Assembly: GCA_964471065.1 (NCBI GenBank)
Contig: CAYYEV010000002.1
Span: forward strand, 1 to 37,900
Origin: an uncultured Candidatus Saccharibacteria bacterium
GTDB taxonomy: Bacteria; Patescibacteriota; CPR2; UBA1875; CAIMLA01
DNA: 37,900 nt
Reading direction: 5' to 3'
Shown: positions 2 through 2,303 of the stretch, piece by piece
Layout of the letters: each line of letters begins with the position of its first letter
How positions within the stretch are numbered: position 1 is the first letter of the stretch
Notes under the pieces: generated by a model
What the model was told of the DNA's origin: nothing
The model's input: only the letters and a program-made list of their open reading frames with translations
Database searches by the model: none
Position numbers and translations under genes: made by a program

Positions 2-223
2 ATATGTTCAGAGCGTGGGAATGATTGGAGACTACCAACTCACAAAGAATTGATGCAGGAGTATATTGACGGTTCAAATTTTAACCTAACCAATCCCGGC
101 TACAACTTCTGGTCCGTGACGGAGCGCAGCGGCACGAATGCCTGGTACGTGAACTTGTCCAACGGCTACACGGGCGCCAACGGTAAGTCCACCAGTAGCA
201 ACTATGTTCGTTGCGTCAGGTAA
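2..223 (+). CDS. 3' end of the DGR target gene: C-terminal DUF1566/Lcl-like (C-type-lectin-fold) domain carrying the variable region. The 5' end lies outside the window.
   Basis: The frame starting at nt 2 is open from the window edge and reads ...GNDWRLPTHKELMQEYIDGSNFNLTNPGYNFWSVTERSGTNAWYVNLSNGYTGANGKSTSSNYVRCVR*, with stop TAA at 221-223. WRLPT..EL and the terminal VRCVR are typical of DUF1566 domains. The last 130 nt are the VR. Confidence 0.8.
   Translation: MCSERGNDWRLPTHKELMQEYIDGSNFNLTNPGYNFWSVTERSGTNAWYVNLSNGYTGANGKSTSSNYVRCVR
93..222 (+). repeat. DGR variable region (VR)
   Basis: 130 nt align without gaps to 950-1079 (offset 857). There are 13 mismatches (VR 125,126,146,158,159,167,173,174,176,177,182,183,195). 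Every one faces an adenine in the other copy, and all fall in the first or second position of AAY (Asn) codons. Confidence 0.92.
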
Positions 224-250
224 CCGGATTATTTGGATTATTTTATGATT

Positions 251-265
251 ACCGCCGAAGGCGGT
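251..265 (+). promoter_or_regulatory. GC-rich hairpin about 30 nt downstream of the VR: candidate DGR target-recognition hairpin/cruciform, and/or terminator of the target gene
   Basis: accgcc-gaa-ggcggt forms a 6-bp stem with a 3-nt loop. A T6 run follows at 274-279. Hairpins just 3' of the VR are known cis elements for mutagenic homing in the Bordetella phage DGR. Confidence 0.45.
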
Positions 266-318
266 CGGGCGACTTTTTTGAGCTGACCAATTGTTTAATA
301 AATTATAAAAAGGACAGG

Positions 319-696
319 ATGGCACGATACGATCATTTGACAGTTTATCAAAGTACCTACAAGTTAAGCTTATATTTCTTCAAGCTTTCGCGCGGGTTTC
401 CAAAAGACTTCAAATACGGTTTGGCCGAGGAAATCAAATTTCTACTTACCACTCTTATTGACCAGATTGTTATTGCTAATAACAGCATTAATCGAGTCGA
501 GACGTTGCAAGAAGCAACCATAATAATCGAGAGGATAAAGATAAAAGCCAGAATGTTACACGACCTGAATATTATAAGCATTAAAAGCTATGAATATTTT
601 TTCGGCCAATTAATCGATATCTCGAAGCAAATTGAAAAGTGGGCGAATTGGGCAAGAAAAGAACTTCCGAAAAACGTTACAGTCCTACAAGAATAG
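319..696 (+). CDS. avd: DGR accessory variability determinant (Avd), four-helix-bundle protein
   Basis: ATG at 319 is preceded by aaaaggacagg. The 125-aa helical protein reads MARYDHLTVYQSTYKLSLYFFKLSRGFPKDFKYGLAEEIK... Size, the FPK motif and its position between VR and TR/RT fit Avd (the 23S-rRNA-IVS-like four-helix-bundle family). The listed ORF start at 211 overlaps the target-gene stop and is unlikely. Confidence 0.8.
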   Translation: MARYDHLTVYQSTYKLSLYFFKLSRGFPKDFKYGLAEEIKFLLTTLIDQIVIANNSINRVETLQEATIIIERIKIKARMLHDLNIISIKSYEYFFGQLIDISKQIEKWANWARKELPKNVTVLQE

Positions 697-949
697 ATGT
701 GCGAGTTTATCTGTTGTTGTGGGCTTGTAAAAAATTTATTAGTCCACGAGGAAGGGCATTAGTTGGAGCTGATTATTTTGAAAAGCTAATAATCAGGTAG
801 ACATTGTCCCATTACGGCTGCTACTCCCTCGCTTGAAAAACGAGACGAGCAATTTATCGCGTTATTTATAGAGGGAATAATATCAAATTTTCTTACCTTG
901 CACAGTCAGGGATAGAGAATCGTGTCAAGAAAGTTAGCGGCAGATGTGC

Positions 950-1079
950 ATCCCGGCTACAACTTCTGGTCCGTGACGGAGAACAGCGGCACGAATGCCT
1001 GGAACGTGAACTTGAACAACGGCAACACGAACAACAACAATAAGTCCACCAATAGCAACTATGTTCGTTGCGTCAGGTA
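950..1079 (+). repeat. DGR template region (TR)
   Basis: Adenine-rich cognate of the VR. It carries AAC/AAT at every position where the VR differs (aac aac ggc aac acg aac aac aac aat). It lies about 140 nt upstream of the RT start. Confidence 0.92.
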
Positions 1080-1218
1080 CAAGGAATGTCCTTCCTCTGC
1101 TAATATCTTTCGACTTAGCCCAAAGAATAGGGGAAGCGGGGCGCAGTATAAAGGATATTGTTCGACCTTGTGGAAAACATTGCAAATCCTTGACAGTTAT
1201 AAAGAAAGACTAGGTACC

Positions 1219-2303
1219 ATGGAAACATATTTTACGTTTGCCAACATGCACAAAGCTTATATAGACTGTCGGAAAAGAAAATCAAAAACTTTTTATCATT
1301 TGAAATTTTCTTATAATCTTGAGGAGAATTTAATGCTCCTGACAAAAGAATTGCAAGAAAGAACCTACAAGCCCGGTCAATCTATCGCCTTTATTGTACA
1401 AAAACCAAAAATAAGAGAAATTTTTGCAGCTGATTTCCGAGACCGAGTCGTGCATCATCTGTTATATAACTACCTGTCGCCGATTTTCGAGAAAGTCTTT
1501 ATTTATGATTCCTGGGCATGCCGAAAAAACAAAGGAACGCACGGCGCCATGCTGCGAATAAAAAAATTTGCGAGCGGAATCGAGAGAGAGAGAGAGAGAG
1601 AGAGAGAGAGAGAGAGACGAAAGCCGCCGGCTTTTATCTCAAAATGGACATCAAAAGTTTCTTCACAAGTATTGACAAACAGATTCTTTATGGACTCATT
1701 GAGAAAAAAGTTAAAAACGAAGAGATATTGTGGTTAACAAAAACCATAATATTCCACGACTGCGCCCATGACATACCACCTCGGATACAAAGTCAGCCTA
1801 GTCTTTTTGAAAAACTCCCTAAGGAAAAGTCGTTATTTACGGTTCGATATGGCAGAGGTTTGCCAATCGGTAACCTAACGTCACAGTTTTTTGCCAATGT
1901 TTATCTAAACGAACTCGACCAATTTGTAAAACACAATCTAAGAGCCAAATGTTATGTACGTTATGTAGACGATTTTATTATCTTGTCTGCTGATCGAAAA
2001 ACTCTCGAATCTTACCGTGCGAAAGTGAGCGAATATATTGCCACGCAATTATTGTTGACCGTGCATCCTGACAAACAATTTATCGCTCCAGTTCAAAATG
2101 GGATCGACTTTGTTGGTTATTTTGTGAAACCTGATTATATTTTAATTCGAAAAAGAGTCGTTGGCGAATGGCGGCGGAGAATGGACGGCAAAAATGAAAA
2201 GTTAAAAAAACAAGCCTTTATCTCCTATATGTCGCATTCGATGTGGGCAAATGCTTATTTTTTGAGAAAGAGAATGGTAAAAAAACTAAACCCCGATAAA
2301 TAG
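1219..2303 (+). CDS. DGR reverse transcriptase, split over two frames as sequenced (1219-1737 and 1518-2303). The frame change lies in the 1518-1737 overlap that contains an A7 run and (GA)18.
   Basis: The N-terminal part reads METYFTFANMHKAYIDCRKRKSK...CRKNKGTHGAM. The C-terminal part reads LKMDIKSFFTSID (motif 2), LPIGNLTSQFFANVYLNELD (the DGR-specific I/LGxxxSQ motif) and YVRYVDDFII (YxDD). Removing one GA unit or adding one nt upstream fuses the two parts into about 360 aa. Confidence 0.85.
1582..1617 (+). repeat. (GA)18 dinucleotide microsatellite inside the RT gene
   Basis: 36 nt of perfect GA repeats. They encode (Glu-Arg)6 in the upstream frame and (Arg-Glu)n in the downstream frame. 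The tract is a polypurine/polypyrimidine mirror repeat. Confidence 0.98.

What the first reader, a model, noticed from the sequence alone, without database searches (positions are those of the whole stretch)
2..2303. Complete diversity-generating retroelement (target-VR / avd / TR / RT) with a textbook adenine-specific mutagenesis footprint
VR (93-222) and TR (950-1079) align over 130 nt with 13 differences. All 13 sit opposite TR adenines, and all fall in positions 1-2 of AAY codons (AAC->CGC, TAC, TCC, TAC, GGC, GCC; AAT->GGT, AGT). This is the design principle of DGR hypervariation on a C-type-lectin-fold scaffold. The target ends in a DUF1566-type domain (...NYVRCVR*). A four-helix-bundle Avd lies between VR and TR. 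The RT carries the DGR-specific IGNLTSQ motif and YVDD. The VR/TR divergence shows that mutagenic homing has occurred in this lineage. Only the last 74 codons of the target are visible, so its N-terminal architecture and localisation are unknown.
Basis: partly seen in the sequence, partly recalled or inferred. Interest (0 to 1): 0.8.

Follow-up and report, generated by a model that had tools for sequence, protein, structure and literature searches.

The report
DGR with microsatellite-switched reverse transcriptase
This is a genuine protein-diversifying retroelement (DGR) in an uncultured Patescibacteria-type genome, but its reverse transcriptase gene is split by a slippery (GA)18 repeat that toggles the same gene on and off in wild relatives, so it probably acts as a random on/off switch for targeted hypermutation.

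Summary
VR 93-222 and TR 950-1079 differ at 13 sites, all at TR adenines in codon positions 1-2 of AAY codons. The target ends in an Lcl_C/DUF1566 domain, a bAvd gene lies between VR and TR, and the RT is closest to Bordetella bRT.

The element is not "complete" as assembled. A pure (GA)18 tract at 1582-1617, the only dinucleotide repeat of 5 or more units in 37.9 kb, puts the RT N-part (1219-1737) and C-part (to 2303) in different frames. One unit fewer or two more would restore a 360-aa RT.

The tract is a conserved feature. Fifteen distinct loci from Berkelbacteria and other Patescibacteria MAGs carry (GA)8-23 at the same RT position: 6 in frame and 9 out of frame, with shifts in both directions. 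Both halves are always intact. dN/dS is about 0.02 for the N-terminal half, between two OFF alleles.

Two near-identical contig pairs differ only by one GA unit, giving a full versus a split RT. More distant DGR RTs carry GA tracts in their 5' ends.

Best reading: an ordinary CPR DGR whose RT is a simple-sequence-repeat contingency locus. I found no description of this in the literature searched. Read-level proof for this window is missing.

The parts
2..223 (+). 3' end (73 codons plus stop) of the DGR target gene, cut by the window edge. Lcl_C/DUF1566 (CLec2-type) domain.
   Evidence: Pfam PF07603 at 48.6 bits, above the gathering score. The syntenic relative L093 encodes a 289-aa protein with an N-terminal hydrophobic anchor and a C-terminal Lcl_C domain.
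93..222 (+). Variable repeat (VR).
   Evidence: 130-nt repeat of TR with 13 mismatches, all at TR adenines.
252..264 (+). GC hairpin CCGCC-GAA-GGCGG, 29 nt downstream of VR. Candidate DGR target-recognition hairpin and/or terminator stem, followed by a T-run.
   Evidence: Unique in the window. Conserved at the same place in 8 related loci, with a compensatory CCACC/GGTGG change in L084.
319..696 (+). avd accessory gene (125 aa).
   Evidence: Pfam bAvd PF22296 at 52.4 bits, above the gathering score. NCBIfam DivGenRetAVD E = 1e-14, below its strict cut-off.
950..1079 (+). Template repeat (TR), with 42 A and 14 AAY codons in the target frame.
1080..1218 (+). 139-nt spacer between TR and the RT start. 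Inferred counterpart of the Bordetella Sp region of the DGR RNA.
   Evidence: Position only. The start of the spacer is conserved among relatives. Function is inferred.
1219..1581 (+). RT N-terminal part (121 codons, frame 1). As assembled, this frame runs through the tract to a stop at 1735-1737.
   Evidence: Aligns to bRT residues 13-160.
1582..1617 (+). (GA)18 microsatellite, the proposed ON/OFF switch. OFF as assembled; in frame at n = 17 or 20.
   Evidence: Only dinucleotide repeat of 5 or more units in the window. Same position in 15 distinct loci. One-unit ON/OFF pairs in relatives.
1618..2303 (+). RT C-terminal part (frame 0) with YLKMDIKSFF, IGNLTSQ and YVDD motifs and the thumb; stop at 2301-2303.

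Best explanation
The locus is a chromosomal DGR of the target(Lcl_C/DUF1566)-VR / avd / TR / RT type in a Patescibacteria (CPR) genome.

Inferred from the Bordetella and Legionella paradigm, it works as follows when the RT is made. RT and Avd reverse-transcribe the TR-containing RNA and misincorporate opposite adenines. The cDNA then replaces VR, re-randomising up to 14 AAY codons in the ligand-binding face of a membrane-anchored surface protein.

Superimposed on this is a simple-sequence-repeat switch. A pure (GA)n tract sits inside the RT gene, between the KGTH motif and the YLKMDIKSFF motif that precedes it. It encodes a harmless (Glu-Arg)n helix or loop extension in any frame. The tract presumably gains and loses units by slipped-strand mispairing.

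Only one length class in three (n = 17, 20, ... with this window's flanks) fuses the two halves into a 360-aa RT. The assembled allele has n = 18 and is OFF: translation stops 117 nt past the tract, leaving a 172-aa fragment that lacks every motif from YLKMDIKSFF on, including IGNLTSQ and YVDD.

The population would therefore alternate stochastically and reversibly between cells that diversify the target and cells that keep their current VR.

Shown here: the DGR anatomy, the frame break, conservation of the tract, its length polymorphism, ON and OFF alleles one unit apart in wild relatives, and purifying selection on both halves.

Inferred: the slippage mechanism and its rate, the consequence for cDNA synthesis, and the selective advantage.
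For: DGR identity:
- VR/TR of 130 nt with 13 of 13 mismatches at TR-A.
- Lcl_C and bAvd above Pfam cut-offs.
- The repaired RT hits Bordetella bRT (8ub7) at E = 1e-42, against 7e-11 or weaker for the next-best hits (retron-type and group II intron RTs).
- A conserved hairpin after VR, with a compensatory change in L084.

Switch:
- (GA)18 breaks the frame, and n = 17 or 20 restores a 360-aa RT.
- 13 of the 60 closest database RTs have (ER)3 or more at the same alignment position.
- 15 distinct loci have pure (GA)8-23 there: 6 in frame and 9 out, with offsets of +1 and +2 both seen.
- In all OFF loci both halves are free of other stops and keep all motifs.
- Window versus L093, both OFF: dN/dS about 0.02 in the N-part; in the C-part dN = 0.16 with dS saturated.
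- L096 with (GA)14 has a full RT and L097 with (GA)13 has a split RT. They are 99.84% identical over 1872 nt, with one mismatch plus the 2-nt gap.
- Deleting one GA from the (GA)12 allele in L094 reproduces exactly the two database proteins P0126 and P0125. These are found on co-linear contigs in which the RT region and everything downstream of it sit 2 nt earlier.
- L087 and L089 have zero substitutions in about 2 kb of RT and downstream DNA, yet n = 11 versus 20. Their VRs have been re-written since the split.
- In 485 kb of unselected RT-containing loci, 7 of 9 dinucleotide SSRs of 7 or more units lie in or at the 5' edge of the RT gene (P = 3e-4).
- GA tracts sit in the 5' coding end of more distant DGR RTs that have a different cassette architecture.
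Against: No reads are available, so tract-length heterogeneity within this window's own population is untested. (GA)18 could be mis-assembled by one unit.

The ON:OFF ratio of 6:9 is what random lengths would give (P = 0.38 against 1/3). Consensus alleles are therefore not enriched for ON.

L087 and L089 differ by 9 units but are both OFF in the same phase.

No experiment shows that OFF alleles lack RT activity. Transcriptional slippage on the tract could blur ON and OFF.

The AF2 model of the repaired RT is only moderate (pLDDT 63), so tolerance of the (ER)n insert rests mainly on natural in-frame alleles.
Confidence: 0.7

Rival explanations
1. The DGR is intact and ordinary. The frameshift is an assembly or sequencing error (PCR stutter or a collapsed k-mer path) in a 36-nt dinucleotide repeat, and the true allele is in frame.
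For: Dinucleotide repeats are error-prone in Illumina libraries. Several related contigs are low coverage, for example cov 4.5 in the title of L084. One-unit differences are the typical stutter size.
Against: Nine of 15 distinct loci from different projects and assemblers are out of frame, including short tracts with n = 8 and 11 that reads span easily. Offsets go in both directions. A 9-unit difference separates L087 and L089. The OFF allele of the L094 family appears on several contigs and in three sources. Even if this window's count were wrong, the tract's hypervariability among relatives would remain.
Confidence: 0.1
2. The tract acts at the RNA or translation level. RNA-polymerase slippage on (GA)n, or ribosomal frameshifting, yields some in-frame product from any DNA length. 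The tract then sets a low, roughly constant RT dose and is not a heritable ON/OFF switch.
For: The ON:OFF ratio matches random lengths, as expected if the DNA frame did not matter. L087 and L089 rewrote their VRs since diverging, yet both are OFF. From general knowledge, a repeat longer than the RNA-DNA hybrid allows realignment by whole units, and GA-dinucleotide loss at GAGAG motifs in transcripts is reported in eukaryotes.
Against: The required shift is +1 in some loci and +2/-1 in others, which rules out one programmed ribosomal frameshift. As far as I know, bacterial transcriptional slippage is documented mainly for homopolymers. The demonstrated DNA-level length changes are sufficient to explain switching.
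Confidence: 0.12
3. The element is a dead DGR. The RT is a pseudogene and the VR/TR divergence is a fossil.
For: The RT ORF is broken as assembled. A published survey discarded more than half of candidate DGRs for premature stops or truncations (PMC5758913).
Against: The only lesion is the tract length. Both halves are intact here and in all 9 other OFF entries (8 distinct loci). Selection is strongly purifying (dN/dS about 0.02, dS saturated) between two OFF alleles. avd, TR, VR and the hairpin are all intact. One GA unit restores the ORF.
Confidence: 0.05
4. The two halves work as a split RT: the N-part fingers fragment plus a separately initiated C-part. OFF alleles would then still be active.
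For: An ATG at 1518 opens a 261-aa ORF covering the whole C-part. Gene callers predict such C-part proteins in relatives: P0059, P0122 and P0125.
Against: The internal start positions are not conserved: upstream of the tract in P0122 and the window, downstream in P0125. The N-part tails differ with the frame. No split DGR RT is known to me.
Confidence: 0.03

Closest known systems
Bordetella phage BPP-1 DGR (mtd-VR / avd / TR / brt)
   Same: Same gene order. bAvd-family accessory protein. RT most similar to bRT among solved structures (E = 1e-42). A-only VR/TR differences in AAY codons. GC hairpin downstream of VR. A TR-RT spacer of about 140 nt.
   Different: This element is chromosomal in a CPR bacterium, not in a phage. 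The target is Lcl_C/DUF1566 rather than Mtd. The RT carries a frame-shifting (GA)n tract where bRT has a shorter segment (gap in the alignment).
Legionella pneumophila DGR (LdtA) and category 'd' / CLec2 targets of Wu et al. 2018 (PMC5758913)
   Same: Short surface-anchored target consisting essentially of a DUF1566-type domain, with the VR at the extreme C-terminus.
   Different: The relative L093 has an N-terminal hydrophobic anchor; a lipoprotein signal was not examined. Different host phylum. No SSR is reported in the Legionella RT, as far as I know.
CPR/DPANN DGRs (cited in PMC5758913 as its reference 23; Roux et al. 2021, PMC8144416)
   Same: Same host group: the relatives are Berkelbacteria, 'Saccharibacteria' and Patescibacteria MAGs. 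DGRs are abundant in these small genomes.
   Different: I found no mention of microsatellites, frameshift switching or phase variation of the RT in those papers or in four full-text searches. Frameshifted RTs were filtered out as non-functional in at least one survey.
SSR contingency loci and phasevarions (phase-variable mod methyltransferases of Haemophilus, Neisseria and others)
   Same: A perfect repeat whose unit is not a multiple of 3 lies inside the ORF of an enzyme. One-unit changes toggle ON and OFF. The ORF is otherwise intact. The enzyme in turn changes the phenotype of many cells (from the literature listed).
   Different: The switched enzyme is a mutagenic reverse transcriptase, so a hypermutable switch controls a targeted hypermutator. 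The repeat is a long dinucleotide placed in mid-gene within a surface helix or loop. The hosts are free-living or episymbiotic CPR bacteria, not host-adapted pathogens.

Membership tests
Diversity-generating retroelement (DGR) | TR/VR repeat pair whose differences are confined to TR adenines. | tested here: met
   130 nt, 13 of 13 mismatches at TR-A, P = 4e-7.
Diversity-generating retroelement (DGR) | RT of the DGR clade, with the [I/L]GxxxSQ motif and YxDD. | tested here: met
   IGNLTSQ and YVDD are present. Best solved-structure relative is bRT 8ub7 at 1e-42, against 7e-11 or weaker for retron-type and group II intron RTs. No formal phylogeny was built.
Diversity-generating retroelement (DGR) | VR at the 3' end of a target ORF in a C-type-lectin-type (here DUF1566/CLec2) domain. 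| tested here: met
   Lcl_C PF07603 at 48.6 bits. VR ends at the stop codon. This class is described in PMC5758913.
Diversity-generating retroelement (DGR) | Accessory variability determinant (Avd). | tested here: met
   bAvd PF22296 at 52.4 bits, above the 40-bit cut-off.
Diversity-generating retroelement (DGR) | IMH/IMH* at the repeat's 3' end and a GC inverted repeat downstream of VR only. | tested here: met
   The last 27 nt of VR and TR are identical, after which the sequences diverge. Hairpin 252-264 follows VR but not TR and is conserved with covariation. IMH function itself was not tested.
Diversity-generating retroelement (DGR) | Intact RT open reading frame. | tested here: not met
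   Frame break in (GA)18. Restored by -1 or +2 units. This is the only lesion.
Diversity-generating retroelement (DGR) | Ongoing mutagenic homing (population variation at A-templated VR sites). | not testable with these tools
   No reads are available. In relatives L087 and L089 the VRs differ at 27 sites, and TR changes are mirrored in the cognate VR.
SSR-mediated phase-variable (contingency) gene | Long perfect repeat, with a unit not divisible by 3, inside the ORF. | tested here: met
   (GA)18 at 1582-1617, the only such repeat in 37.9 kb.
SSR-mediated phase-variable (contingency) gene | Tract-length polymorphism giving ON and OFF alleles among near-identical genomes. | tested here: met
   Met in relatives: L096 versus L097, L094 versus P0125/P0126, and L087 versus L089. 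Not testable for the window's own population.
SSR-mediated phase-variable (contingency) gene | Gene otherwise intact and under purifying selection. | tested here: met
   No other stops in any OFF locus. dN/dS about 0.02.
SSR-mediated phase-variable (contingency) gene | Measured high-frequency, reversible switching with a phenotypic consequence. | not testable with these tools
   Needs reads, time series or experiments.

The most novel reading that the evidence does not exclude
In a clade of Patescibacteria DGRs, the reverse transcriptase gene is itself a contingency locus. A conserved (GA)n microsatellite, acquired at two or more different positions in RT genes of two cassette architectures, stochastically and heritably switches targeted hypermutation ON and OFF. 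Lineages can then alternate between exploring and freezing variants of a surface protein. Some relatives carry a further GA tract upstream of the target gene, which hints at a second tier of switching.
Probability: 0.6. Interest if true: 0.8.

Novelty: new variant of a known kind. Interest (0 to 1): 0.72.

Why it matters
How DGR mutagenesis is restrained is an open question. A cell that keeps rewriting a useful receptor loses it, yet few regulators of DGR activity are known to me.

A microsatellite switch inside the RT would be a simple genetic answer, suited to tiny CPR genomes with few regulators. It links two classic diversity mechanisms: SSR phase variation and retroelement-driven hypermutation.

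There is also a practical consequence. Surveys that discard DGRs with "frameshifted" RTs, or gene callers that report only a 244-290-aa RT fragment, will under-count and misclassify these elements as dead.

The idea can be tested directly with existing metagenomic reads by comparing the tract-length distribution with VR diversity.

Tried and rejected
- Exact look-ups of the window's Avd and of the 691-aa neighbour found nothing, so the source contig is not in the collection.
- Two pattern scans of viral contigs found no GA-tract RTs. This gives no phage link.
- Rfam found only four tRNAs and no known RNA family in the DGR.
- My strict A-only TR/VR finder missed cassettes with TR on the other strand or with non-A changes. 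A relaxed self-BLAST recovered them.
- Programmed ribosomal frameshifting was rejected because the required shift differs between loci.
- The pseudogene reading was rejected because the halves are intact and selection is purifying.
- L029 and L091 proved to be the same sequence and were counted once.
- The AF2 model of the repaired RT was only moderate (pLDDT 63). I used it only to place the tract at the end of helix 106-128, before the YLKMDIK strand, and did not take it to a fold search.
- The promoter/terminator scan of 1-2500 gave nothing above the shuffle expectation and did not call the 252-264 hairpin.
- Four literature searches and two DGR survey papers gave no prior description. This covers the held library only.
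Full report
**1. The reported observation**

Window 93-222 and 950-1079 are an ungapped 130-nt direct repeat, the only two copies in the window. They differ at 13 positions, and at every one the 950-1079 copy has A. That copy has 42 A in 130 nt, so the chance that 13 random differences all hit A is 4e-7.

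In the target reading frame (stop at 221-223) all 13 lie in codon positions 1-2. Identity continues for 27 nt after the last change and stops just past the stop codon.

The 73 visible residues of the target match Pfam Lcl_C (PF07603, formerly DUF1566) above the gathering score. ORF 319-696 matches bAvd above the gathering score.

**2.

The RT is not a single ORF. The N-terminal part starts at ATG 1219 and runs in frame 1. The part carrying YLKMDIKSFF, IGNLTSQ and YVDD runs in frame 0 to the stop at 2301-2303.

The two frames change over inside a perfect (GA)18 tract at 1582-1617, the only dinucleotide repeat of 5 or more units in the 37.9-kb window. As assembled, translation from 1219 ends at 1735-1737 and gives 172 aa without any catalytic motif.

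Removing one GA unit or adding two gives a continuous 360-aa protein. Its best match among all PDB chains is the Bordetella DGR RT bRT (8ub7, E = 1e-42). The next hits, retron-type and group II intron RTs, are at 7e-11 or weaker. In that alignment the (ER)n stretch falls in a gap relative to bRT, just before the YLKMDIKSFF motif.

An AF2 model of moderate quality (pLDDT 63) places the tract at the C-terminal end of helix 106-128 and the following loop, before strand 138-144.

**3. The tract is a conserved feature of an RT clade**

Of the 60 closest database RTs (52-79% identity), 13 have (ER)3 or more at exactly this alignment position. Some database entries are C-terminal fragments that start in or near the repeat.

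I gathered DNA in two ways, both blind to reading frame. One was a protein-pattern scan of metagenome contigs. The other was a DNA pattern, (GA)7 followed within 10-40 nt by ATGGAYATHAAR...TTYTT, run against one genome per GTDB species.

The genome hits are MAGs labelled Candidatus Berkelbacteria, Patescibacteria group, 'uncultured Candidatus Saccharibacteria' or simply bacterium.

Counting the window, 16 loci carry a pure (GA)n tract at the same place, with n = 8-23. L029 and L091 are the same sequence, which leaves 15 distinct loci.
- In frame (6): L001 n=8, L081 n=16, L083 n=10, L085 n=19, L088 n=16, L092 n=11.
- Out of frame (9): window n=18, L029 n=8, L044 n=23, L082 n=13, L084 n=18, L086 n=20, L087 n=11, L089 n=20, L090 n=18.

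The required shift is +1 in some loci and +2 in others. This excludes one programmed ribosomal frameshift.

The 6:9 split is what random lengths would give. It is incompatible with the gene simply being kept intact (P = 3e-6 under 90% intact).

**4. The OFF alleles are not decaying genes**

In every out-of-frame locus, both halves are open from the M-x-T-Y-F-T-F start to the tract and from the tract to the normal stop, with all motifs conserved.

The window and its closest, syntenic relative L093/L084 are both OFF. Between them the N-part has dN = 0.071 and dS = 3.2 (ratio about 0.02). The C-part has dN = 0.16 with dS saturated. Such long-term purifying selection with a single lesion type is the signature of a reversible switch.

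Every locus with enough upstream DNA has a TR/VR pair of 115-133 nt in all (two adjoining blocks in L083 and L092) with 12-23 A-only differences, whether ON or OFF.

**5. Direct ON/OFF polymorphism in the wild**

(a) L096 and L097 come from two sibling ENA samples. They are 99.84% identical over 1872 nt, with one substitution and one 2-nt gap. L096 has (GA)14 and a full 380-aa RT. L097 has (GA)13 and a split RT.

(b) The 382-aa RT P0124 has a (GA)12 tract (L094/L095) and was found on 11 contigs. It shares a 90%-identity cluster with P0126 (139 aa) and P0125 (245 aa). These lie on co-linear contigs whose gene coordinates are identical up to the RT and shifted by exactly 2 nt after it. Deleting one GA unit in silico from L094 reproduces both proteins exactly, including the C-part start coordinate 6410.

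(c) L087 and L089 are two Berkelbacteria MAGs, 97.7% identical over 3.8 kb. They have no substitution at all in about 2 kb of RT and downstream DNA, yet their tracts are n = 11 and n = 20. Their VRs differ at 27 sites, and the non-A changes in each TR are mirrored in its own VR. Homing has therefore occurred since they diverged.

The tract thus evolves far faster than point substitutions.

**6. Specificity and recurrence**

In 485 kb of RT-containing loci that were not selected for repeats, 7 of the 9 dinucleotide SSRs with 7 or more units lie in, or at the 5' edge of, the RT gene, which makes up about 19% of the sequence (P = 3e-4).

Four of those seven are in more distant RTs (about 42-48% identity) and sit at the 5' end of the gene:
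- L031 (GA)19 and L027 (GA)12, in frame with an upstream start codon.
- L034 (GA)7.
- L018 (GA)19, at a contig edge.

L031 and L018 are bona fide DGRs of a different architecture, with TR downstream of the RT on the other strand and 19 of 19 and 19 of 20 mismatches at TR adenines. L094 is similar, with 11 of 11; its TR lies on the opposite strand, downstream of avd and upstream of the divergently oriented RT.

GA tracts have therefore been recruited to DGR RT genes at two or more positions. This argues for selection on the repeat as such, not on a particular peptide.

**7. The rest of the DGR**

A GC hairpin, CCGCC-GAA-GGCGG at 252-264, lies 29 nt after VR and is unique in the window. It is conserved at the same place in eight relatives, and L084 carries a compensatory CCACC/GGTGG change. 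It is absent after TR. This matches the GC inverted repeat that promotes homing in the Bordetella and Legionella elements, as summarised in PMC5758913.

The TR-RT spacer is 139 nt.

The target is cut by the window edge. The syntenic relative encodes a 289-aa protein with an N-terminal hydrophobic anchor and the Lcl_C domain at the C-terminus. This is the short DUF1566-only 'category d / CLec2' type exemplified by Legionella LdtA (PMC5758913).

The 14 AAY codons allow roughly 15^14, or about 3e16, protein variants.

The surrounding genes show a chromosomal, not phage, location. They include an ABC ATPase, a MacB/FtsX permease, the FtsQ-MurG-FtsW-MraY-Mur ligase cluster and four tRNAs.

**8. Interpretation**

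The most economical reading is an ordinary CPR DGR whose RT gene is a simple-sequence-repeat contingency locus. Slipped-strand mispairing changes n, one length class in three yields RT, and this window's consensus allele is OFF.

The rivals, with my probability for each, are:
- An assembly error at this particular tract, 0.10. It cannot explain the cross-locus pattern.
- RNA-level slippage that makes the DNA frame irrelevant, 0.12. It is compatible with the random ON:OFF ratio and needs RNA data.
- A dead element, 0.05.
- A split enzyme, 0.03.

**9. Novelty**

The DGR as such is a new member of a well-known kind. The microsatellite switch in its RT appears to be undescribed.

Four full-text searches combined DGR terms with phase variation, SSR, microsatellite, frameshift and CPR. 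They returned only general reviews or unrelated papers. Two large DGR surveys do not mention it, and one of them states that candidates with premature stops were discarded.

This is absence from the held library, not proof of absence. I rate the locus a new variant of a known kind.

Noticed in passing
window 2375-6346; L093 10811-14793; L094 7257-12360: The genes immediately downstream of the RT are conserved in synteny in three diverged DGR loci. They are a large fn3/Pur_ac_phosph_N-repeat surface protein (691 aa here, 1043 aa in L094), an ABC ATPase and a MacB/FtsX permease. This may be a functional neighbourhood of the DGR, or simply a conserved chromosomal site.
   Followed up: partly
L082 4133-4156; L089 (RT-sense orientation) 3957-3984; L085 (RT-sense) 1233-1250: Second dinucleotide tracts, (GA)12, (GA)14 and (CT)9, lie in the intergenic region about 170-200 nt upstream of a downstream ORF (the putative target gene or operon). 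In L082 and L089 they sit directly after a hairpin GAGTTCG-aagttc-CGAACTC. The same GAACTC(GA)n junction flanks the RT tract in those loci. The target's expression may also be phase-variable, or GA tracts may travel with a small palindromic element. The window's own target upstream region is missing.
   Followed up: partly
L087 and L089 RT just 5' of the tract; proteins P0022, P0033, P0038, P0028, P0037: The same RT loop is an insertion hotspot. Several relatives carry 30-60-aa in-frame insertions there. Some read like translated REP/MITE-type palindromic repeats (...SCHSERSEESxxxERSLDxARDDN...), placed immediately before the (ER)n stretch.
   Followed up: no
L093 6421-7695 (-); L094 591-2324 (-): A large serine recombinase (Resolvase + Recombinase + Zn_ribbon) lies next to the DGR cassette in two relatives. 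This suggests that the cassette sits on, or beside, an integrated mobile element. The corresponding region is outside the window.
   Followed up: no
window 922-1737: The TR, in the target's reading frame, the 139-nt spacer and the RT N-part form one uninterrupted open frame with no stop between TR and the RT start codon. Database RTs annotated as RVT_1 + Lcl_C fusions (P0082, P0106) may reflect the same layout (not checked). Probably an ORF-calling trap and not a real fusion.
   Followed up: no
alignment, position of the tract (P0001, P0003, P0006, P0012, P0025, P0031): Relatives without a long tract often keep short or interrupted E/R-rich remnants at the same position (LERSSRERW, LARERR, LERERA, IERERKGRRR). 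This is consistent with repeat birth and decay, that is, alleles locked ON by interruptions of the repeat. It was checked only at protein level.
   Followed up: no
window 8570-11770: A 1066-aa ORF has a weak TrwB/type IV coupling-protein DNA-binding domain hit. It lies next to a Sigma70_r4 + HARE-HTH protein (7460-8563).
   Followed up: no
window 25953-26565: tRNA cluster: Thr-TGT, Tyr-GTA, Thr-GGT and Trp-CCA. The small minus-strand ORFs beyond it (26.9-37.8 kb) were not annotated. A dcw cell-wall cluster lies at 13983-19524 on the minus strand. This is ordinary chromosomal context.
   Followed up: partly
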